Numbered from the whole stretch's first letter, positions 7,897-59,210 are shown. The stretch is DNA of 63,998 nt, filler included, from Piptocephalis cylindrospora (GCA_003614145.1; 6 parts of 6 records of this genome joined end to end with filler, not necessarily neighbours in it), one strand, 5' to 3'. Numbers and translations are program-made. Notes: a model not told the origin generated them from the letters alone.

Positions 7897-10850
7897 ATGA
7901 CCTCGGACGATCCCGGACAAGGTCTTGGTAGTAGGAGAGCGACGCGGTCCCGTCGTACTGCCGGGTCTTCCTCCACCACGACATCTGCCTCCTCTTCTAG
8001 GGCTGCCAAACTGGCTGCTTTGCGCGAAGCTCGTCAGAGCGGACGAGGAACCCTGGACATGTATGAGGTGCGTATATTTCCTATCTTTATCCAATTGAAT
8101 ATCTCCCCTCACCTTTACCTCTCATTAACTCCCGAAAGGTCGATGACGGTGAAGTATACGATGAAGTGCCTGAGGAGGAGTATCGGAGATTGACTCATCT
8201 ACACGGCGAGGAAGATGACTTTGTCGAAGAGGATGGTGATGCCATTCTCGGTTTGGGTCATAGTGGTTACACTGATCGTGGCCAAGATGTATGGGGAGAG
8301 AGATATGATGGGGGTAGCTCCGAGGATGAGGAGGATGAAGAAGGCAATGGGTCGTCCGGTAAGTCATTTCTTGCTCTGTGAGATTAGTGATTAAGCATCT
8401 TCGTGGCTAACACTACATTTCCTCTATTTCGTAGCATCCAAGAGGAAAAGGGGAAAAAAGGGGGGTGTCGATGGATCCGATGGTAAAGGCATTTCCCGTA
8501 AGGGCTTTACAGATTTTTTCCAAAGAAACGTCACCAGTACTCTAGCCTCTGCGGCTGCCAATGCCAAGCAGCACAATCCCTCCATGAAAGGGTCTAGCTT
8601 CACTACCAACCGTAAGGTAAGGCAACTTACTCATATCGGAGTTTTTCCCGAAGAGAGCTATAGATTAGTTAACATATACCCCCTTCTTTTCCAATTTATT
8701 CTCTCCCGGAATGGGCATAGACTGAGGCGGACGACGCAGATTTCTTGCAGAATCTTCTTGGTGAACTGGATGCGCCCAGCACAACTCTAGAACGAACCAA
8801 GCCTTTGAGATCACCAGCAGTCACGAAAAAAGTTCAGTCCTTCCGGGAACCTTCGAGGACAGGGCATCCCTTACTGAAGAAACCCCGTATTCCCTCCCAC
8901 ACCCAAGTATCATCTAGTCCTGTCAGACCCATTCACCAATCCCATCCAGAGCCTTCCCAGCACAATTCCAAGGCAAAGGCTCAGGAGTTTGAGCACGAGG
9001 ATGACGTGGTAGGTATATCATCCAGGGGAACGAGGGAACAGTCACTACTTTCAATCTTAATCTCATTTTCTCCCATCTCCTTCCCTCTTGCAGTATGAAG
9101 AGCCTCCAAGTATTGATCAAATCCAAATACCTTCACTCGTTCAGAAAGCCGACGATACGAACGACGATTGGGGTGATTTTGATGGAATGGACGATGCAAT
9201 GATTCTTGTGGAGGCTGCCAAGGAGGCCGAGATGAACGTTAAAGGGAAGGCCAGCATTTTTGATAGTAAAGCTGAACCCTCCTATGTCTCCTGGAGGCAG
9301 CTGGAGGCCCCAGAGATCAAAGAAGTAATGACTGAGGGGCCTCCTCTCAATGGAACAACGTCCACGCAAGGCACTACCGTCTCAAACTTAAACTCTGCTA
9401 CCTCCTCTGCTCTTCTTGAAGAGGATGGGACTCTGAAGATGTTTTGGATGGATGCCTACGAACGTCAGGGCCTCATTTGGATCTTTGGTAAGGTCCTTCA
9501 TCGGGAGACTGGCCAATGGATGAGTACTTGTGTTACTGTGCAAGGGTCTCTGAGGAACCTCTACGTTCTTCCCCGGCCGCCTCAGTACAATGGTAGGATG
9601 GGATACATGGGAATACTGGGTTGAGAGGCGTATTTATCCCTTTCTATTTTAACTCAATTTTCCCTCATCCTTTTCCCCAGATCAAGGGGAGGAAATCAAG
9701 GAGGGTGCATCAGCCTTGGATGTTTACAATGAACTCCGCCAGATTCTCCCTCGACATGGCATCAATCAATGGCAGGCCAAGCAGGTGGAGCGTACTTATG
9801 CGTTTGAAGAGACCGGGATTCCTGCCAAAGCCGTGTATCTCAAGGTGGTTTACCCCTTTACCATGCCTTTCCTCCCATCCGATCTCCGGGGTCAAACCTT
9901 TCATAGGGTCTTTGGCACGGAGACGAGCCCCTTGGAGCTGCTTCTGCTTAAGCGCCGTCTCATCGGCCCCTGCTGGATATCTCTTTCCAATCCCCAGATT
10001 GCCTCGGCCCCCACCATCTCATGGTGCCGGGTGGAGGTGACGATCCAATCACCCAAGGAGCAGATCCGTCGTTTGGATGATCAAGAGGCTAGCGGACTCC
10101 CTTCTATCCCTCCTCTGACCTTGGCAAGTCTGGTCTTACGGACGGTAATGGATATGGAGAAGCGAGAGAATGTACTGGTAGCCGCTCATCTCCTCATTTA
10201 TGAAGCCGTTGACATCATGGATCCCAAGGGTTTAGAGGGGACGAGCGGGGGAAAGAGATCGAGGTACACAGTGGTCCGGCCTATGGACACTAGTCTCCCT
10301 TTTCCCCCCGGCCTCAAGGACGCCTTGAGGCGGGAGGGTCAGTGGCTCGGCACAGGTCAAGGCGGTGGAGGAAAGGTAGAGCAGGTACGGACCGAGCGTG
10401 CCCTTCTCTCCTATCTCCTTAGCGTTTTACACCGGCATGACCCGGATGTTTTGATCGGACATAACTTCTTTGGCTTTGATCTTGACGTCCTCATGCACCG
10501 GTGTAAGGCATGCAACGTGGAACAGTGGTCCAGACTTGGGAGACTTCGAAGATCCCAGTGGCCCTCATCCCTCATGACCAATGGAAAGGGGGGGAAGAAG
10601 CGGGGCCGGTCCCAAAAGTAGAGAGGAGTGTGGTTGGAGGAAGGCTAGTGTGCGATACCTATTTGACGGCCAAGGATCTAGTCAAGGCACGTAGCTACGG
10701 AATGACCCCACTTGCCGGGCAGATCCTCGGGATTGGCCGGGAGGAGGTGGTGTGGGAGGGGGGGGCTCAGGCCTGGAGCAATGCCGCCTCCTTGGCCTCC
10801 CTACTCTCCCATGCGGCGTGTGACGCATGGATTGGCATTGCCATGACTGG
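7897..10850 (+). CDS. POL1: DNA polymerase alpha catalytic subunit, 3'-truncated by contig end, with an apparent 1-nt frameshift at ~10590
   Basis: VYDEVPEEEY..DDFVEEDG, LKMFWMDAYE..IFGKV, ERTYAFE, DPDVLIGHN, WSRLGRLRR, GRLVCDTY. Confidence 0.96.
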
Positions 10851-26380: not shown

Positions 26381-29300
26381 ATGCACTATTTCTCTCTGAA
26401 AGGGATTGAGGCTATAAAAACGACTCTTCTCCTACTCTGCTTGGTTCATCTGGTATGCCTCTCAAGCCCCTCTTTGGCCGTCCCCACAATGACGACCCAC
26501 CCTATCTCAAGAGGGGCTTCGAACAACCATCTCTCAGGTAATGAGGTCGAATTGGTGAAGCGGATGCCTAGCTGGAGAGAATACTGATTACATCATGACC
26601 TTTCCTCTGAACCCTTCCCCTTGCCGGATAAATGACATGCTTCTGTCTCCACTTTTTCTAGTCAACAAGGCCAATATTCCTCCTCCTACTCCTCATGCAC
26701 CGCTCACGAAGAATAAAAGCTTTCCTGAAGGTCAGAAGCATAGAGTTTCATGGGATTCATCCCGCTCATAGTGTCATCCCCCTAACAACAGCACTAACTC
26801 GCTCTATTTCTGTCCCAATGATGTCCATTTCATTCATGCTCATTTTACATACGCACGCACTTTATTGCCTTTCAGGCGTAGTAAGTAATTTGTCTCTTTT
26901 ATCTCGGAACAAGTATCTACGGAATGCTCATCTCTCCCTTGATACCTTGGTATCCCATCCTTAGAACCACAAGAAGGTAGAAGCACCAGGTATGCATCGA
27001 AAAAGCCCATATTTTATAGTACATCCAGATGATATTCCCCACTCTTCAATCCTCATCCTCATTTCTTCTCGTACCATGCAGTAAAAGTAGCAATCAAGAA
27101 GAATCAAGCACAGTCTATTCAAAACACAGGGTCTGACCATGCTGGCCCATCGGTACGTAACCTTGGGCATTTGGAAATGATTTAGAAAGAGGCGCTAGTC
27201 AAGGATAATGGGGGGCCTGTGTAGAGATAGCTACGTCTATTTTGTCTATCAATTGTTTACTAATATGCATTATCACCTTTTTACTCTATATGACAGAAGG
27301 CACCACAAAAGGTAATATGAATACTACTATAGGTTGAAAATGCCATAGATGGGCCATCTTTTTCGATTTGTGATATGGTTCTTACTTTGTCTCTCCTCCG
27401 CTTTGCTTCATATTATGTCCATCGCTAACCCCTAGAGTGCCCAAGAGGTATGTGGGTCGATATGTGGATTGGGTGAGTGGAAGTGTACTAAATCTAACCA
27501 GCCATGCACTATCCGACGACCCGACAATCATCCCTTCCATTCCCTAGGAATACGACTCTCTTGATACATTTCTTCGAGGCTTTGAGGTACATACCGATGA
27601 AGGGATCTAATCCTATCGTGATCTGTGCCTAGCCACATTTTGCTAATCAGCTAATTATCCCAATTCGTACACTTACCTTATTCGTAGGACCTTCCTATGA
27701 AACAAAAAAGAAAGACCGATAAAGGAACACGGCAGGTAATTTTGGCAGGGTGAGGGTGGCTTAGTTTACGCTATTGGGGCGATAGGATACGTTCCCTTGA
27801 TGCACTTACTCTTTACTTTCTAGAGAATTACGAATGTGGATGATCAACGTTTTAAGCGTGTAAGTTTGGAGCTGAGAAGAGGATGAAAGAGTATATTCGA
27901 TCTGATTGCCTCTTTTGGCATCATTGGTCATCCTTCTCGTCACCCTTTAAACTTGCATTCTGGTGTATGATTAGAAATTATTTTCCGCTTGGAATGCCGT
28001 TAGAAACTCTAACAAGGAAAAGCTTTCCGTCGAGGTAAGTAGGAAGGAGGTGTGTCTTTGGAAATTCTCGTCGGCAAAGGAAAGTGTACTGAGCTGATTT
28101 TGGTATCTCCTCATCTCCCATTCCCTCCCTCCCATGTGGTCCTCCCACAGACACTGGAGAAACTGGAGGGGCAGATACGTGATGCTTACAAGAGGTTTAT
28201 CGTTCTCAAGGTAAGGTATTTCTTTGGCTCCTTGATCCACGGAGGGGAGGAGGGAGACCAGCTCCTTAGCGAAAGGGCTATTCATCCTTTTGAACGTTGA
28301 GAAAAAGGCAAAACCCAGACGATCATTCAACCTTCCCGTTATTTCTCTTGCGTCTCTAACCACTGTTTCTCTACACATTAATCATGGGATAATCATGGAA
28401 TAGGTCGAACAGAATAGTGAGGTGCCATTCTCTACCCTTATGCCGGACGGAGTAACTGGTAAAACGGTACGTAAACTATGGCTCATTACATTTGGCTCCT
28501 TTCGTCTGAAAGGAGATTGTGTTAAGGGAGATATCTCATGATCTCAGCCTTGCTGTTGTAATTTACTCCTTTTGGGTCATATTAGACCGAAAATCCAAGT
28601 GCACTTTTTGAAGAGGGAAAGCGGGTTAAATTGGTAAGTTCACTTCCCCCCAATTGCATGCCCTTTGCCTTTAATCAACATCTTACTCTAGCAGCAAGTC
28701 TCTTCGCTATTAATGATCAGTTCATTTTCCCGTACCGCTATATATAGACCCTTGAGGATATTGACACGGAAATTTCGGATATCAAGGTAAGAGGACGCCC
28801 TACTACCACCATCTTTATTCACCCCTTATTCACCTTTTATTCACCCCCACCTCTTTCTCTTTCATAAAGATTTCTTCTCGTAGCACCCTGTTCACGGTAA
28901 GATAGGGCCCGCCCCTTTTCCTCTCGGAGACACAATTATGACCTTGGTCACTGACCAAACCTTTTTTCTTGTATTAGAGCGCGGATGATCAGGTGGAGTT
29001 TGCTAAATGGGTAAGGATAAACTAATGTGGGATGCATCAAGTAACTTAGGGTCTCCTTGAAAGACACAAAGTCCTCATTCCATCACTATTTCCTCCTGAT
29101 TTAGAAATATTCCACAATCGAAGGCGCTTCCGAAGGAATTGCTAGCAACCCTCTAACCAATGTAAGCCGTAGCGAGGGGAAAGAGGATATAAAAGGCCTT
29201 TTGGATTTGTCATCCATTTTGACACTCACCTTTCGATCCTACGTCAGCCCCAAACATTTCCCTGGACGGACAAGAACTATGTAACTAACCTGGTGGATTA

Positions 29301-30261
29301 TTCCTCGAGGATCAAGTCATCGCTTGACACAATGCCCGATATGACGAGAGTGGCGAAACTTGATAAAAAAGCAAAGGTACGCCTCTCTCCCCTATCTTCC
29401 CACTCTGTCCTCTCCCGTCAAGAATTTATGTCTGTAGGATGAAGCAATATGTGAAGTGGCCTAGTGAAGGATTTTAAATCTCCAAGGCCTGCTCCCTTTG
29501 GCGTGGCTTTATTATCCCCTTCTCACCTTTTATTTCTTATGCTTAATTAGAACGACGACGTCAGCTCATCCCGTTCATCCAGTGAAACCTCCATCGCACC
29601 TATCCGCGCTGAGATGCCGAGCAATATCCAGACCAATACCATCCGACCAGCCGTCAAAACCGGGAGCACTTCTCGTAAGCATACGCCCATCCCAGATTGC
29701 AAGCCGAAGTTTGGGCTCGAAAGCATTCCCGAGGAAGGTCCGGCTCTAAGTTTCCAACGGATAAATATACCCAAGAGCAACCAAGTTCCGAGTTCGCGAC
29801 AGAAGGGTACTTTCCTTCCCCAGGACTTTAAGGGCCTTTCTTCGTTCGTCCGTTCATCGCGTCATCCATCCAACTCGGTACCGATGATCACTTTGCGAAT
29901 GGATGGCCTGAAAAAAAAGCTTCAGGGAGTCTTTAGATCCTCTAAGCCCTCAGGAACCAGTACCCGTCGAGCATACGAATCACTTTCGACAATGGTGGGC
30001 CATGTGCCCATCGTCTTTTTCCGGAACCATTATCTTCCCAAGTTCATTAAAGGAGAACAAAGAAGCAAGTGGGGGGGGGGGGGGAAGGACCGTATTCCCC
30101 CCCGCCGGACGCGTGTTCTCCTCAGGAGAGAGCATTGGGGCTTCATTGCAGGGCCGGACCCTGTTGGCTGTACCTTTTACGAAATACAGGTGATTTCGTG
30201 TTGGTCTCTCACTTGGCCGTTCGTTTCTCCAAGACCGGGACGATTGTTGCACTTTCCATGA
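26381..30261 (+). CDS. Secreted protein of unknown function encoded by ~20 mostly tiny exons (~567 aa; 3' end uncertain)
   Basis: Exons 26381-26537, 26662-26730, 26876-26880, 26965-26989, 27082-27152, 27297-27311, 27436-27447, 27548-27586, 27688-27735, 27824-27859, 27975-28034, 28151-28210, 28404-28466, 28586-28633, 28748-28786, 28870-28896, 28978-29010, 29105-29161, 29248-29376, 29551-30261. All introns are GT-AG and the exons join into one stop-free frame with an N-terminal signal peptide. Confidence 0.8.
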
Positions 30262-32451: not shown

Positions 32452-32716
32452 ATGAAGGTCACCGCTCTCATCTTCGTCGTGGCCTGCTTGGCCGCCCATC
32501 CTATTGTTGCCCCTTCTCCGGGACATGGTGAGTACATCTTTATTTCCCATGCAGATGACCTGTGCGGATACAATATCATGACGTGAATAGGGGATAAAAG
32601 TAAATTAGCAGGTTCACTTACGGCCTATCCTCTGTTCATAGCTTCAGTCCCTGGTGGAGGCGCCAAACCAGTGGTAGTCCACCCAGGTGAGTACACTACC
32701 TTTTTTCACATTAATG
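32452..32716 (+). CDS. 5' part of a small-exon secreted protein, truncated by contig end
   Basis: MKVTALIFVVACLAAHPIVAPSPGH (32452-32527, GTGAGT donor), then a 45-nt exon 32642-32686 (ASVPGGGAKPVVVHP, GTGAGT donor). Confidence 0.7.
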
Positions 32717-50164: not shown

Positions 50165-51627
50165 TATGAGGGAATGTGAGAGTATTGGAAGGGAAGGGAG
50201 GAGAAGTGAGAGACGAGAAGGAAGGAGAGGAATAGAGGAGGCGGGACATGTGAACGGGATGGGACAGAGAAAAGAGTGTGGGTTTTATACTTGTCAGGGG
50301 AGTCATGGACAAGCCCAAGAGAGGGAAGCAGCAGATGATGTAACATGGCGTATTCCCCTCATGCACACAACACCTTGATGACCAGGAGCAGCAGGCTCGT
50401 CCACTGAGAGTGAATGCACGTGCCTTGTGGCAGGGTGCTACTCGCCAAGGGGCCGAGAGACAGTCCTACCTTGGCTGTGCCCAACAACGACTGTGGGGAA
50501 ATATGGTGGTGTTTAGTATGGTGATCTTGGATTTAGTAGTCTCGGTCAGATAAGTGACACAGGCCGGATGGTGGAGTGCCTTCGCTGCGATGATCAAGCG
50601 AGGGTTAGGGGGCCTAGAGTATAGTACGACACGAATGAGACGCGATGATAAGGCAGTATGATATACTGAGTTATTTCTTATAAAAAGTATTTTCTCATCT
50701 ATTACGGGAGAGAGAGGAGTAAGAACAAGAGGAATATTGAGGCAGGTTATGTGTTTGGATATCTTTAGCGCCTATCCCACTAGGGAAAATAAAATGAGTT
50801 CAACAACAACAAAATAAAATGGTGTCAACAACAACAAGAGAAATATGGGTCATGACGTGTTGTTCGGTATTACGTGGATGGAAGGTAGCCTGAATATCTA
50901 GAAATAGAAAGAAAATTAGGGAAAAGGGTGTGGCCAAGCAAGAAAGTTCACGGCCTATGGATGGCAAGGACAATTCTACACTGGAGACAGGGATGGGCGG
51001 TCTCTCGGAAGGGTCTAGCCACCAGGGCCATCCCAAAGAAAGACAAATAGATAAAGCAACAGAGAAAGGATGAATGTCTGACCACCAAGCCAGTCCTTTG
51101 CTCGACGATGGACTTGATGATGAGATCATAGAAGGACCATTTGATGTTGATGGGCGTGTAGGATATTCGCGGTTTCTTGGGTTGGAGATCCTAGCGATCG
51201 CATTGAGATTTCGTGGGGCAAGCTCAAGAATGTGCCAGTAGATGGTGCAGGTCCTCTTCAGTCTCCTCACACCGGGCGTATCCCCACTCCTGTGACCTCC
51301 GGTAGATGTCCCTGTACCATGGTATTACGACGTGTTTCATGTCATGTAGCCCCGCCTACAATACCGCTTTGGCTATTTAGACAGAGATGGAGCTATTATT
51401 ACTATTGTTATTGCGATACCAGCACTCTTCTCATTCGAGGGACAATGGGGCCCAAGCTCCCCCTTCCCCTTCTCCCCTCTCTCTTTCCTTTGCATGATAC
51501 AATAAAAAGGAGACCACACTAGAGACGACGATAACACTAGAATGACTACCCACCACAAAAAAGTAGAACACATGCCCTTGTGAGTAGAAAGAAGGAAAGG
51601 GCCGTTTATCCGAGGTAAAAAGAGCCG

Positions 51628-52122
51628 TTAAGCTTTACGGATAGCCAGGACTCTCATGCAATGAGGGCATTGATGAACGTCGTCCCTGAAGGGCCCGGCC
51701 ACTAGGGGGACCCAGAAGCATGGCCAGCAGATGAGGCAACAGAGGCAAGCAAAGCAACCGGCCATGGCGCCGACTTCCTTTTTGACTTGAGTGGTGACGG
51801 TCACCTTACAGTGAGGACAGGGCATGGGGATGGGGATGCGGTCGTGGATCACGGGGACCGGGTCTGGCTGTCCAGGGGCGGTTCCCTGCTGGTTGTGAGC
51901 TCGTTGCGGGCTATTCTGGTCCTGGGGGGAGTAAGTTGGGGGAGCAGCTTCACCAATGGGAGCCGTAGGAGGAGACATGGGGGAAGCGGCGCTGTCGCTG
52001 GGATGTCCTTCGGTGTGAGGCACCGGAAAAGATACAGCAGGAGCAGCGTTACTGTTCTCTACCTCAGAGGTCTGGGCAGGGATGCCGGATTGGGAAGCTG
52101 TGAATTTTTCCGTTTGACTCAT
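51628..52122 (-). CDS. LITAF-domain protein, tandem paralog
   Basis: Start MSQTEK; PPTY; CPHC...CWPCFWVP...HQCPHC. Confidence 0.92.
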   Translation of the reverse strand: MSQTEKFTASQSGIPAQTSEVENSNAAPAVSFPVPHTEGHPSDSAASPMSPPTAPIGEAAPPTYSPQDQNSPQRAHNQQGTAPGQPDPVPVIHDRIPIPMPCPHCKVTVTTQVKKEVGAMAGCFACLCCLICWPCFWVPLVAGPFRDDVHQCPHCMRVLAIRKA

Positions 52123-53235
52123 AGTTATGGGAGAGTTTGAAGGACAAGTGAGAAAGAGACAAAAGAGTAAGTTTAAGATAAAGAGAACATGGAATGAGGA
52201 CACTTTAGAATAGGGCTGAAGTTTTTATACGTTTAGAGGGCGGGATCTCATGCTATGAGGGACAAGGATGGGCTGGTATGGTGTGTCCACGTGCAAACTG
52301 CTTGTAGAGGCTATATTGGTTGGTTGGGAGGAGATAAGGCTATGAGAGTTGGAAAGTATGGAGGACGGCCAACGCCCAGGAGATCTTGAAGATCAAGGGA
52401 ATCAGAAAGGACCTGGGGATTTTTTATTCTACCAATTGGTTGGCTAGTAATATGTAATGCGAGCGAGGAGCGGAGCTGGAATTATGGGCATGTGTGAGGG
52501 CCAGGAATCGAGACATGTCTTGGTGGGCGAGACGAGGTGTGTAGGTTTCAAGAGCGGTGAATGAAGTGAGATGTTGTGAGGGCATGACTGGATGCCAGAA
52601 CCCTTATTCGTTTAGTGCTAGTAGCGCTAATAATATTAGGTTAATGAATGAAAGATATAGAACGGGCAAGAGGAGTAAGGAGTGTTTCGTGGAAGGATTC
52701 CACAGAATCCTGGTCCGCCCTACCCACCGTGTCACGTTCACATTGTGTGTAAAAATGGCCGACTAATTTTCTTATGGGGAAAGATGACAAGATATGCGCG
52801 CTCCTTCCTCTGGACAGGAGTTGCATGCAGAAGATAGTGATCCAGGATCTTAGCCCCTATCTCCTGGGATTACACGTGGATAGGACCTTGGTGCCCTGGT
52901 GCTCATCCACCCGGTCGGTCTTCAAGCATGTGAAACGTGTGTATGTGCTTCCATGAGAGATCTGGAGCACCTGGTCTTCCACAGATCATTTCTACGGAAG
53001 GCAGGATATTTCAAGTACTCATTTACTGTCCACGTCAGCCTGACTCGATCGGTCACATTGGATGTATCGTCTTTCTCCTGAGCTATTTTGGGATTTGTCT
53101 GATCTATAGCAACAGGCCTCCTTGGTTCCCTCAACGGTAACATCTCTCCCAAGGCAGGTGTCTATAGACAAGGGCGGAGGCTTGTCGGAGATGGCCTGTA
53201 CAAAGCTGGTCCCCGCTATCCATCCCCAAGTCAGT

Positions 53236-56185: not shown

Positions 56186-56889
56186 TTAGTAAGAGTCATC
56201 TGGGATAGAGGAGAAAGATGGGCTGTTGAAGCAAGAGAGAATACACGTTTGCATGTGTTTGGATCCTCACTTGGACTCGTCATTTTGACTGGCTAGTTCA
56301 AGGAAAGAAAGTAATATGGATCAAGGCCCTTGTTCTTCTATTCAGACACGAAGGAAGGAAGAATGAGTGAGCTCTCTATTGCTATCCTTATATGCTCATT
56401 CATGACCATCAATAACCTAGCCTCAATACAAAGCAAAGAATGGCTTTTCTGCCCCACGCCTCCCTGAGGTGGGACAAAGTGTGCCCATACATAGCAGCAT
56501 TTGGAGCTCCGCATGAAAAAAGACCCTGTATACCTGCCCTAGCATATACCCCCTAACAACATTTGCTCCACCCCGCTCGTCCCATCCATGCAACCCATAT
56601 AAAGACTGAAATTCATGGTACTTTACCAAGACCACCTACCCCATCCTCCCTCACTTTTATTCTCCCATCCCCTATCCCCTTGACCTCCCTAACGCTTACT
56701 GTGCTAACGAGTACCGACATCCTTTCGAATATCCATCCTGACTTCCGCTTGTGCCACCTTACTTCTCCTACCTACCATCACGCCCCTGGGTGATTCTCTC
56801 CCTCTCTCTCTTTCTCTTCCTCTCTTTCCAACACAATCGCCATTACTCGGCCTCATTAACGACTCTCAAACATTCGTCCCCCCCCCCCC

Positions 56890-57507
56890 ATGCGTCTTCT
56901 CTCTCTTCCCATCATCCTTACCCTGCTTGCCCTTCCTTCAACGCCAGTCCAGGCTGCTCCCATGCCAGCTTGGTCCGTTGGGAAGATCGCTACTGTTGGC
57001 TCTGCTGTGGCTATGGGCACAGGCATAGGTATCTTTGGCTACCATTCCTACAGGGATCTCAAGAAGAATGAGAAGGTCCGTAAGGACATCGAAGCCCTCC
57101 AGAAAGAAAAGAATGCCGTTGCCGAAGCCAACGCGCTAGCTTCCTTCTCTCCCAAGAAGAAGCCTTCTCCTACTCAAACATCCACAGAAACGACGATAGA
57201 GCCCACCTCTACCCAGAATTCTACAGAGACAACGAAGGATCCCCACCCTTCATCATCAGCAGATCCATCATCAGCAGATTCATCATCAGCACCATCGGCT
57301 GTTCCTTCGTCTATACCATCGACAAGTCCCTCTTCTACACCACAGCAAGATCGGAAGAATGATACAAAGGATCTTTTAAATTCCTCAAGCGCTAATACTG
57401 CTCCTAAAGGAAGAGAGGAAGAGAAGGGGCAAACACCATACTCCTCCACCCCCGAAGATCAGCCCTCTGTAGAGCCCACCCCATCTTCCAAGGTCTCCAA
57501 GGTCTGA
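56890..57507 (+). CDS. Secreted/membrane-anchored protein with Ser/Thr/Pro-rich tail
   Basis: Signal peptide, then AP-MP, Gly-rich hydrophobic segment, basic coiled coil and S/T-rich disordered tail. Confidence 0.8.
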   Translation: MRLLSLPIILTLLALPSTPVQAAPMPAWSVGKIATVGSAVAMGTGIGIFGYHSYRDLKKNEKVRKDIEALQKEKNAVAEANALASFSPKKKPSPTQTSTETTIEPTSTQNSTETTKDPHPSSSADPSSADSSSAPSAVPSSIPSTSPSSTPQQDRKNDTKDLLNSSSANTAPKGREEEKGQTPYSSTPEDQPSVEPTPSSKVSKV

Positions 57508-58271
57508 TTCCGTCTTAATATCATCCTCCTCTCTTTTTATGCTCTTGATCATTTGAATGAATATATCTTTCTTCTCTTGGACCATCCTTTAACGTATCTT
57601 ATATGCCCTTCATCTGTCCCAACAACAATAATGCGCCTTGGGTAGCAGCATTTCAGGGTCCAGCAGAGCCATGTTCAATGTCCGCCCCTATCTCCGTCAT
57701 ACTCAGTCAACTCCGACACGGGTCTTGTCCTTAACTTTTATGCCTTGCCTGCTACCTCATACTTGTCTTTTCATCCTTTCCTCTTCCTGCTTCCTGCTTC
57801 CTGCTTCCCTCATCACCGCACTTTCCCTATCACTTCGCCTTCCCTATCACCCATCTTCCTGACGCCTCCGACTCTGTTTCCCCCTCTCCCCTTCCTCCTC
57901 CCCTCCCCCACTTTCTTTCTCTGACGCCATCAAGCAGATTCTCCCTCTTCTTCCCTCTGCACCACACTCATCCTCTATCTGCCTCTCCTACCGCGCTATT
58001 GGGACCATCTCCTACACCAATTTTCCCCATTGATCGCTTGGTAGTCGATACGCCCCGCCTCTTCATCCCTCAACCACTCACACTTGCTTCCTCATCCCCC
58101 CTCCGTGAACGATCTCCTCTATTGCTCCCTCCTTTCTATCACTGCGACCCTCAAAAAGAGACCAGTGGCCCAGTTCCCTTTCACGTACGCGAGTTCCTCC
58201 CAAGCCCTTCTCCCTCCTCCACAAACCGTCCCTTAGACCTTGTTGTCGACCCCACTTCCCTATCTCTCACT

Positions 58272-59210
58272 ATGAAACTCATCATCCCTTCCTCCAGTCG
58301 ACCTGTGCGCCTCCCCCTCCTCCCTCTTCTTTTTTTGATCCTTCCAATCCACACCATGCTCGCAGTTCCCGTCCCCCAGCCTGAGCCTAACCCCAGCCCC
58401 AAGCCGTTCTCGACGGGAAAGGGCCTGCTCGCCACAGGTATTATTGGCATTGCTGGTTACGGTATTCATCACTGGAACAACTCTCGAAAGACCAAGGAGG
58501 AGCAAGATGCTGAAAAGGCCAAGATGCTGGGAGAATCCTTCAAATCCAAGCCGAAGGAGCCTGCTCCCGCTCCCGCCCCAGAGCCTGCTCCTGCTCCCGC
58601 CCCTGATTCTGCTGCTGCTCCCGACCCTGCTGCTGCCCAAGGTGCGGCTCAAACTGCTGCTCCCTGGATGAATGATCCCACATTCCTAGCATACCAACAA
58701 CAGATGCTAGCTGCCATGCAACAGCAAAAAGATCAGCAGCCACAACCTGATCAGACTCAGCAGCAGGCTCAGCCGGCTGAACAGCCTGGCCAAGCACAAC
58801 AATCACATCAGGCTCAGCAGCAACCAGGCCAAATGGACCCGGCCACCATGGCCCTTCTCCAAGCATCTGTGCCAGGTGCCCCTCAGATGAGTCCGCAAAG
58901 CCAACTCGAGGCGTATGCCCGGGCCATGTGGTTTCAGCAGCAGATGATGGTGCAACAGCAACAGGCTGCTCAGCAAGGGCAAGGGGAACAGGCAACGCCA
59001 GAGCAACTGAAGCAGTTAATGGATCAACAAACCCAACAACAGTATCTTCAGCAGTACCTTGCTGCTCAACAGCAGGGCCAGGGTCAAGCCCAGGACGGTA
59101 CCTCCCAAGAGCAAGCTCAAGCCGCCATGATGGCTCAGATGATGGCCATGTATCAGCAGCAGCAACAGCAGCAACAACAAGCTCAGCCGCAAGATCATGT
59201 CCAGAAGTAG
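58272..59210 (+). CDS. Secreted/membrane-anchored protein with Gln-rich tail
   Basis: Start MKLIIP; signal peptide, (X-Pro)7, Gly-rich hydrophobic segment, PA repeats, Q/M/A-rich tail. Confidence 0.8.
   Translation: MKLIIPSSSRPVRLPLLPLLFLILPIHTMLAVPVPQPEPNPSPKPFSTGKGLLATGIIGIAGYGIHHWNNSRKTKEEQDAEKAKMLGESFKSKPKEPAPAPAPEPAPAPAPDSAAAPDPAAAQGAAQTAAPWMNDPTFLAYQQQMLAAMQQQKDQQPQPDQTQQQAQPAEQPGQAQQSHQAQQQPGQMDPATMALLQASVPGAPQMSPQSQLEAYARAMWFQQQMMVQQQQAAQQGQGEQATPEQLKQLMDQQTQQQYLQQYLAAQQQGQGQAQDGTSQEQAQAAMMAQMMAMYQQQQQQQQQAQPQDHVQK

What the first reader, a model, noticed from the sequence alone, without database searches (positions are those of the whole stretch)
26381..30261. Hidden micro-exon gene for a secreted protein with 14 consecutive symmetric phase-0 exons
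Seen: 26.6-29.5 kb has no useful ORF, but consensus AG|exon|GT units chain into one reading frame from a signal peptide. Exons 6-19 are 15, 12, 39, 48, 36, 60, 60, 63, 48, 39, 27, 33, 57 and 129 nt. Every length is divisible by 3, introns 5-19 are all phase 0, and there are no stops (KAPQK/SAQE/EYDSLDTFLRGFE/DLPMKQKRKTDKGTRQ/RITNVDDQRFKR/...). Other spliced genes here (e.g. HIR1, the pseudokinase) use mixed phases. Known: Schistosoma micro-exon genes (MEGs) encode secreted proteins from symmetric exons and diversify by exon skipping. Inference: this may be a convergent fungal system in which any subset of cassettes can be skipped without frameshift, generating effector variants. I know of no description of this in fungi. 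The product also has an NLS-like KQKRK.
Basis: partly seen in the sequence, partly recalled or inferred. Interest (0 to 1): 0.9.

Follow-up and report, generated by a model that had tools for sequence, protein, structure and literature searches.

The report
Fungal parasite gene of in-frame mini-exons
A fungus that parasitises other moulds has an orphan gene for a predicted secreted protein whose middle is encoded by 14 short frame-preserving exons in a row, a layout known from animal-parasite effectors, but the pieces are likely spliced in one fixed order rather than mixed to make variants.

Summary
A 20-exon, stop-free frame of 567 codons runs from 26381 to 30261. Exons 6-19 are all multiples of 3 and introns 5-19 are all phase 0. 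An independent database model of a Piptocephalis cylindrospora protein is identical over 508 residues, covering all 19 junctions, but lacks the signal peptide. A frame-blind splice scan finds the same donors. The phase run is far from chance (about 1e-4 to 3e-6). No homologue was found.

The skipping-diversification idea is untested, because no RNA run was listed, and the indirect evidence leans against it. Splice sites are of ordinary strength. Skipping needs 191-389-nt introns, against 4 of 88 that long locally. A housekeeping SmgGDS-like gene in the same window has 12 of 12 phase-1 introns. The NLS-like motif is at chance level.

Best reading: a likely host-facing secreted protein built by old exon duplication, bicycle-like rather than MEG-like in operation. 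I found no paper describing this layout in fungi. The scan's own unchecked notes report similar genes in other fungal genomes.

The parts
26381..26537 (+). Exon 1 (157 nt, intron phase 1): ATG and predicted signal peptide, residues 1-33 (26381-26479); the database model starts later, at 26489
   Evidence: 19-residue hydropathy windows up to 2.24 within residues 4-38 and none above 1.3 elsewhere; no SignalP run
26662..26730 (+). Exon 2 (69 nt, symmetric phase 1-1)
   Evidence: shared with P0001
26876..26880 (+). Exon 3, 5-nt micro-exon (phase 1-0)
   Evidence: shared with P0001
26965..26989 (+). Exon 4 (25 nt, phase 0-1)
27082..27152 (+). Exon 5 (71 nt, phase 1-0)
27297..27311 (+). Exon 6 (15 nt, phase 0-0), first of the symmetric run
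27436..27447 (+). Exon 7 (12 nt, 0-0)
27548..27586 (+). Exon 8 (39 nt, 0-0); predicted helix 1
27688..27735 (+). Exon 9 (48 nt, 0-0); predicted loop with the basic KQKRK motif
27824..27859 (+). Exon 10 (36 nt, 0-0); first half of predicted helix 2
27975..28034 (+). Exon 11 (60 nt, 0-0); second half of predicted helix 2; weak acceptor
28151..28210 (+). Exon 12 (60 nt, 0-0); predicted helix 3; faintly like exon 15
28404..28466 (+). Exon 13 (63 nt, 0-0); weakest acceptor, with an in-frame alternative AG 9 nt downstream
28586..28633 (+). Exon 14 (48 nt, 0-0)
28748..28786 (+). Exon 15 (39 nt, 0-0); faintly like exon 12
28870..28896 (+). Exon 16 (27 nt, 0-0)
28978..29010 (+). Exon 17 (33 nt, 0-0)
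29105..29161 (+). Exon 18 (57 nt, 0-0)
29248..29376 (+). Exon 19 (129 nt, 0-0), last of the symmetric run
29551..30261 (+). Exon 20, long basic Ser/Pro-rich tail. The 3' end is uncertain: the database model leaves at a donor after 30189 and adds two exons (from about 30339), and a long G run near 30070 could be mis-sized

Best explanation
This is a 20-exon orphan gene of the mycoparasite Piptocephalis cylindrospora for a predicted secreted, cysteine-poor protein that likely acts on the host mould, and whose middle was likely built by old duplications of frame-neutral exon-plus-intron units and is likely spliced constitutively. Shown by sequence and calls: the exon chain, the 15 phase-0 introns, a single N-terminal hydrophobic stretch and the absence of detectable relatives. 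Predicted at low confidence: exons 7-13 fold into a three-helix bundle, followed by short helices and a disordered basic tail. Inferred: a symmetric exon can be copied or lost without frameshift, so the run is the footprint of growth by exon duplication, since erased by fast divergence. Its benefit is evolvability at the DNA level, as in aphid bicycle genes, with occasional skipping tolerated rather than programmed. The effector role is inferred from secretion, orphan status and lifestyle only.
For: Chain and database agreement; frame-blind recovery; phase run P 3e-6 to 9e-5 for a phase-0 share of 0.40-0.50. It is the top micro-exon chain in the window (score 31.7 with 14 exons, next best 15.9 with 4). 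Same-phase runs mark repeat-built genes here: the SmgGDS-like gene has 12 of 12 phase-1 introns and 11 of 11 internal exons 3n. Faint duplication trace: exons 12 and 15 match from their first residue (family-wise p about 0.005; 18 of 33 nt identical). For constitutive splicing: donor and acceptor scores do not differ from the SmgGDS-like gene (p 0.41 and 0.82); single-exon skips need 191-389-nt introns, against 4 of 88 local introns of 200 nt or more; predicted helices cross the exon 10/11 and 12/13 junctions. Intron definition and retention dominate in fungi (PMC12861292), few skipping cases were seen in Cryptococcus (PMC5006051), and there is no 3n bias in skipping outside animals (PMC6142364).
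Against: No repeat is detectable without anchoring at exon starts (111 of 150 shuffles score as high), 3'-anchored similarity is nil (p 0.53), and the anchored statistic was chosen after seeing the pair. Introns resemble each other no more than control introns do, and exon lengths vary tenfold, so duplication is inferred, not shown. Focal introns are longer than local ones (median 114 vs 83.5 nt, p 4e-4) and some acceptors are weak (-5.7, -0.4), which could favour skipping. No gene family was found, unlike for bicycle or MEG genes. At 567 aa the product is large for an effector, and secretion rests on hydropathy alone. The structure model has mean pLDDT 49.
Confidence: 0.5

Rival explanations
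1. MEG-like system: exons 6-19 are cassettes skipped in combinations to give a pool of secreted variants that dodge or match host recognition.
For: All 14 exons are frame-neutral; signal peptide; parasitic lifestyle; introns longer than local background and two weak acceptors. Short exons are the ones skipped even in some short-intron species (PMC6142364). The fungal effector SP7 has five differentially spliced mRNAs (table footnote in PMC4617103).
Against: Ordinary donor strength and long skip-introns; helices predicted across junctions; only 41% of the coding sequence lies in internal exons of 81 nt or less; skipping is rare in fungi; a housekeeping gene nearby shows the same kind of symmetry.
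Confidence: 0.2
2. The introns were gained into an existing reading frame with a phase-0 bias (for example by an intron-generating element or proto-splice-site insertion), so the symmetry is a by-product and has nothing to do with modules.
For: Exons differ in length and sequence and show no clear repeat. Several junctions fit the AG|G/A proto-splice pattern (pattern recalled).
Against: The introns share no sequence beyond control level. Ten neighbouring genes have phases 30/24/22 with a longest run of 3, so no genome-wide phase-0 wave is visible locally. It would not explain why the long last exon was spared.
Confidence: 0.15
3. The product is a precursor cut by Kex2 at Lys-Arg sites into several secreted helical peptides, with exons as peptide units. 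This rivals the protein's function, not the gene's origin.
For: 4 KR sites in residues 110-331, against shuffles p 0.046; one ends exon 10.
Against: Marginal p value, no repeated peptide unit, and the sites do not line up with most junctions.
Confidence: 0.1
4. Artefact: the chain is a chance path through non-coding DNA, chosen to keep a frame open.
For: No homologues, no Pfam match, no RNA evidence; the database model appears to be a prediction as well.
Against: The frame-blind splice score of 74 far exceeds shuffles (max 25.7) and the reverse strand (32.6). The chain frame has 0 stops against 6 and 24 in the other frames, and the best codon score. Two predictors agree on 19 of 19 junctions.
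Confidence: 0.04

Closest known systems
Aphid bicycle genes (PMC9168663, passages; PMC13552887, passages)
   Same: Secreted orphan proteins of a parasite; many small internal exons almost all in one phase; about 17 exons on average; helical; AlphaFold2 fails without close relatives.
   Different: Bicycle exons are in a non-zero phase ('exon phase 2'), usually carry CYC motifs and saposin-like folds, and form families of a hundred or more genes. Here the phase is 0, exons 2-19 encode no cysteine beyond the signal peptide, and no paralogue was found.
Schistosoma micro-exon genes, MEGs (PMC10526429, PMC4350168, PMC4699917; passages)
   Same: Signal peptide, tandem small symmetric exons, parasite, no recognisable domain.
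   Different: MEG exons are mostly 15 nt (6-36, up to 81), make up most of the coding region, sit between 0.1-5 kb introns, give proteins of at most 189 aa, and are shown to be alternatively spliced. Here the median internal exon is 43.5 nt, introns are 81-193 nt, the protein is 567 aa, and splicing variants are unknown.
SP7-like effectors of arbuscular mycorrhizal fungi (PMC11333574, section 6 and passages; PMC4617103, table footnote)
   Same: Fungal biotroph, secreted, hydrophilic and partly disordered, basic motifs; several splice versions reported for SP7.
   Different: SP7 has 6-11 recognisable repeats and a family signature, with one conserved intron noted. No repeat or signature is seen here, and no run of symmetric exons is described in the passages read.
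SmgGDS/RAP1GDS1-like armadillo gene in this window (P0002)
   Same: Long run of same-phase introns with all internal exons 3n (12 of 12 phase 1).
   Different: Conserved intracellular repeat protein, exons of 126-252 nt (about one repeat each), phase 1, no signal peptide.

Membership tests
Schistosoma MEG | N-terminal signal peptide | tested here: met
   Single hydrophobic stretch at the N-terminus; hydropathy only, no SignalP
Schistosoma MEG | Tandem symmetric (3n) short exons | tested here: met
   14 consecutive 3n exons; 17 of 18 internal exons are 81 nt or less, 7 of 18 are 36 nt or less
Schistosoma MEG | Most of the coding region in very small exons | tested here: not met
   41% of 1704 nt lies in internal exons of 81 nt or less
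Schistosoma MEG | Long introns (0.1-5 kb) | tested here: not met
   81-193 nt, median 114; overlaps only the bottom of the MEG range
Schistosoma MEG | Isoform pool made by exon skipping | not testable with these tools
   No RNA run was listed
Schistosoma MEG | Sequence kinship to MEG families | tested here: not met
   Only the protein itself at E <= 0.001 among 1.84 billion representatives
Aphid bicycle | Many small internal exons nearly all in one phase | tested here: met
   16 of 19 introns are phase 0
Aphid bicycle | That phase is the bicycle phase ('exon phase 2') | tested here: not met
   Phase 0 here against PMC9168663
Aphid bicycle | CYC motifs | tested here: not met
   Cys only at residues 20, 26, 381, 538 and 548; one bicycle protein also lacks Cys
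Aphid bicycle | Saposin-like fold | tested here: inconclusive
   Single-sequence model, mean pLDDT 49; only generic three-helix matches, best Z 8.2 (rmsd 2.7, 78 aligned)
Aphid bicycle | Large divergent gene family, expressed at the host interface | not testable with these tools
   No genome held and no RNA; sequence searches found no paralogue but would miss very divergent ones
SP7-like effectors | Imperfect hydrophilic repeats with the family signature | tested here: not met
   No internal repeat above shuffles (111 of 150); the signature itself was not aligned
SP7-like effectors | NLS and host-nucleus location | tested here: inconclusive
   One PSORT-type pat7 motif (definition recalled) in residues 110-331, matched by 27% of shuffles

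The most novel reading that the evidence does not exclude
This is the first member of a hidden class of fungus-against-fungus effectors in Zoopagales. Like schistosome MEGs and aphid bicycle genes, but convergently and in phase 0, they are assembled from frame-neutral mini-exons, and the parasite skips them in combinations to make variant secreted proteins in a kingdom where exon skipping is otherwise rare.
Probability: 0.18. Interest if true: 0.82.

Novelty: new variant of a known kind. Interest (0 to 1): 0.48.

Why it matters
Same-phase mini-exon layouts have served to find effector families that sequence search cannot see (bicycle genes). A clear case in an early-diverging mycoparasite suggests the same gene-structure search could uncover effectors in fungus-fungus parasitism, where almost none are known. 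It also gives one cheap test: RT-PCR or long reads across exons 5-20 would show whether a short-intron fungus uses symmetric exons for variant proteins or only carries them as a trace of history. The public model omits the signal peptide, so secretome surveys would miss this gene. If splicing is constitutive and the gene has no family, it stays an architectural curiosity.

Tried and rejected
No genome was held, so genome-wide phase statistics and a paralogue hunt by gene structure were impossible. RNA run search: no RNA holder listed, which is no evidence either way.

Homologue searches: the last exon found only P0001 among 1009 candidates; P0001 is a one-member cluster; phmmer over 1.84 billion representatives found only itself; exon 1 had 9 candidates and none at E <= 10; in metagenome contigs 137 pattern matches gave none confirmed; Pfam gave 0 families at E <= 1, so UniRef's 'S1 motif' label is unsupported here; ESM Atlas best feature score was 0.82 and TM at most 0.43.

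Folding: whole P0001 gave pLDDT 35; the middle part gave 49. Foldseek had no match at E <= 0.001. VIA-align gave only generic three-helix bundles for model residues 1-103, and the rest was barely tested.

Gene prediction: my first run over-called introns and was re-run with a stricter penalty. Background models still contain some false introns, so phases are given for all 76 and for 46 strong ones (22/15/9). In the tile control, regions used for training also showed 9-10 exons of 3n among 17-18, so I repeated the test leave-one-gene-out; HIR1 still gave 11 of 22 and MFS 6 of 9. One SmgGDS exon alone found no relevant PDB or Pfam match; the whole P0002 did.

Other ideas: intron-to-intron similarity was rejected (top z 5.6 against 6.2 in controls). 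Retention of any one of the 19 introns gives a premature stop.

Literature: searches for this layout in fungi listed no paper that describes it, judged from listings and abstracts; one search returned 0 papers. Subscription papers are not in the library, and DeMarco 2010 and Kloppholz 2011 were seen only as cited by others. The scan's notes had nothing for this genome, this sequence or Zoopagales.

Full report
Identity. The last exon of the proposed gene matches one database protein, P0001, named by its sources as a hypothetical protein of Piptocephalis cylindrospora. A neighbouring gene matches another protein of that species at 100%. The species is an obligate mycoparasite grown on the mould Umbelopsis isabellina (PMC6784888, passages).

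The observation. Twenty exons give 1704 nt and 567 codons with one terminal stop. Intron phases are 1, 1, 0, 1 and then fifteen times 0. P0001 is identical to this chain over 508 residues from residue 37, including the 5-nt exon 3, so it shares all 19 junctions. It begins at a downstream ATG and therefore lacks the signal peptide, and it differs after 30189. The genome paper's main text has no mention of a transcriptome (0 hits; the one 'RNA' hit is ribosomal; supplements not seen), so I treat P0001 as a second prediction, not as RNA proof.

Is it chance? Because both predictions keep a frame open, I ran a frame-blind test with splice matrices trained on 10 other genes of the window. In 27100-29600 the best chain scores 74.0, against 32.6 on the reverse strand and at most 25.7 in 100 shuffles. 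Its 14 donors are all model donors, 10 of 14 introns are exact, and 10 of 13 exons are 3n against 39 of 111 in control genes (p 0.0016; p 0.04 with a stricter penalty; p 0.013-0.09 over the whole gene). In the chain frame exons 6-19 have 0 stops, against 6 and 24 in the other frames. Predicted introns of the 10 control genes have phases 30/24/22 (22/15/9 for 46 strong ones), with a longest run of 3. A run of 15 phase-0 introns among 19 has P = 3e-6 to 9e-5 for a phase-0 share of 0.40-0.50, and 1e-3 at 0.6. A scan of both strands for chains of short symmetric exons ranks this locus first by a wide margin (31.7 vs 15.9). These control models come from my own small predictor and contain some errors.

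The armadillo gene at 43170-40081 (-) is related to Rap1 GDP-dissociation stimulator 1 (E 4e-8). It has 12 of 12 introns in phase 1 and all 11 internal exons 3n, 126-252 nt. Its database model P0002 shares 11 of 12 junctions, and the twelfth differs by an in-frame 12 nt. So introns are not independent in phase: one of 11 control genes has a comparable run, most simply because repeat units were duplicated with their introns (inference). A same-phase run alone therefore does not show a diversification system. From memory, not from a call: the human gene has a similar layout and skips one such exon to give two isoforms, so symmetry can be used for skipping as well.

The protein. Residues 1-33 hold the only hydrophobic stretch and end like two other secreted-looking proteins of the window (A-V-P and A-A-P junctions). 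Residues 110-331 (exons 6-19) are charged (38 K/R, 35 D/E) and cysteine-free; the last exon is basic and rich in Ser, Thr and Pro. AlphaFold2 on the middle part alone gives mean pLDDT 49, with three helices at about 75 over exons 7-13. Some helices match single exons (8, 15, 17), but helix 2 crosses the exon 10/11 junction. Fold searches return only generic three-helix bundles. No relative was found in any search. The KQKRK motif fits a PSORT-type pattern (definition recalled) that 27% of shuffles of the same residues also give.

Origin. Exons 12 and 15 resemble each other from their first residue (family-wise p about 0.005; 18 of 33 nt), but the test was chosen after seeing the pair, and unanchored self-similarity is not above shuffles. 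Introns are no more alike than control introns. Duplication of exon-plus-intron units followed by fast divergence is thus plausible but only faintly visible; phase-biased intron gain is the rival. Earlier notes of this scan give the same duplication reading for fungal genes in other genomes. They prompted the test but are unchecked and are not evidence.

Is skipping used? This could not be observed: no RNA run was listed. Indirect signs are mixed and lean against. Donor and acceptor scores do not differ from the SmgGDS-like gene (p 0.41, 0.82). Skipping one exon needs an intron of 191-389 nt, while 4 of 88 local introns reach 200 nt. Fungi mostly recognise introns rather than exons and favour retention (PMC12861292, passages); few skipping cases were seen in Cryptococcus (PMC5006051, passages); and skipped exons are not enriched for 3n outside animals (PMC6142364, passages). 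In favour: the focal introns are longer than local ones (114 vs 83.5 nt, p 4e-4), two acceptors are weak, one has an in-frame alternative, and the fungal effector SP7 is reported with five spliced mRNAs (PMC4617103, table footnote).

Comparison. It is built like a MEG or a bicycle gene but belongs to neither family. It fails the MEG tests of exon share (41%), intron length and kinship (PMC4350168, PMC10526429, PMC4699917), and the bicycle tests of phase and CYC motifs (PMC9168663). In operation it is closer to bicycle genes, whose paralogues differ widely in exon number (PMC13552887) and for which the main text of PMC9168663 never mentions alternative splicing (0 hits). My searches listed no paper on this layout in fungi, within a library that lacks most subscription papers.

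Verdict. Observation confirmed; interpretation partly supported. New variant of a known kind. Interest 0.48, rising to about 0.8 if combinatorial skipping or a hidden family is shown (probability about 0.18 for skipping).

Noticed in passing
window 43170-40081 (-): SmgGDS/RAP1GDS1-like armadillo gene with 12 of 12 introns in phase 1 and all 11 internal exons 3n (126-252 nt); the database model agrees at 11 of 12 junctions.
   Followed up: yes
window 32452-32686 (+): Another gene with a signal-peptide-like start; exon 1 is 76 nt (phase 1), followed by a 45-nt symmetric phase-1 exon, Pro/Gly-rich, then an assembly gap. It could be a second symmetric-exon secreted gene, but the gap hides the rest.
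   Followed up: partly
window 44254-43859 (-): Signal-peptide-like start followed by His and two Cys-Pro motifs; resembles an AA11-type lytic polysaccharide monooxygenase N-terminus (recalled). Pfam gave no relevant match for this exon.
   Followed up: partly
window 56860-57507 and 58270-59210 (+): Two adjacent single-exon, signal-peptide-bearing low-complexity proteins (Ser/Thr/Pro-rich; Gln-rich). Both have a Gly-rich hydrophobic stretch ending in aromatic/His residues just after the signal peptide, so they may be distant paralogues; no Pfam match.
   Followed up: no
window 22683-23966 (-): Intronless secreted subtilase (Peptidase_S8, E 8e-16) about 2.4 kb from the focal gene, divergently oriented; subtilases are discussed for these mycoparasites in PMC6784888.
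   Followed up: no
window 8000-10621 (+): The DNA polymerase alpha catalytic subunit reading frame stops within or just after the exonuclease domain, and the HIR1 gene follows at about 11 kb; no polymerase-domain match among the ORFs scanned. Possibly a truncated copy or a mis-assembly.
   Followed up: no
window 49619-50284 and 51631-52224 (-): Two tandem LITAF-like zinc-ribbon genes.
   Followed up: no
window 30070-30105 (+): A long G run followed by a C run inside the last exon; a homopolymer error here would change the predicted C-terminus.
   Followed up: no
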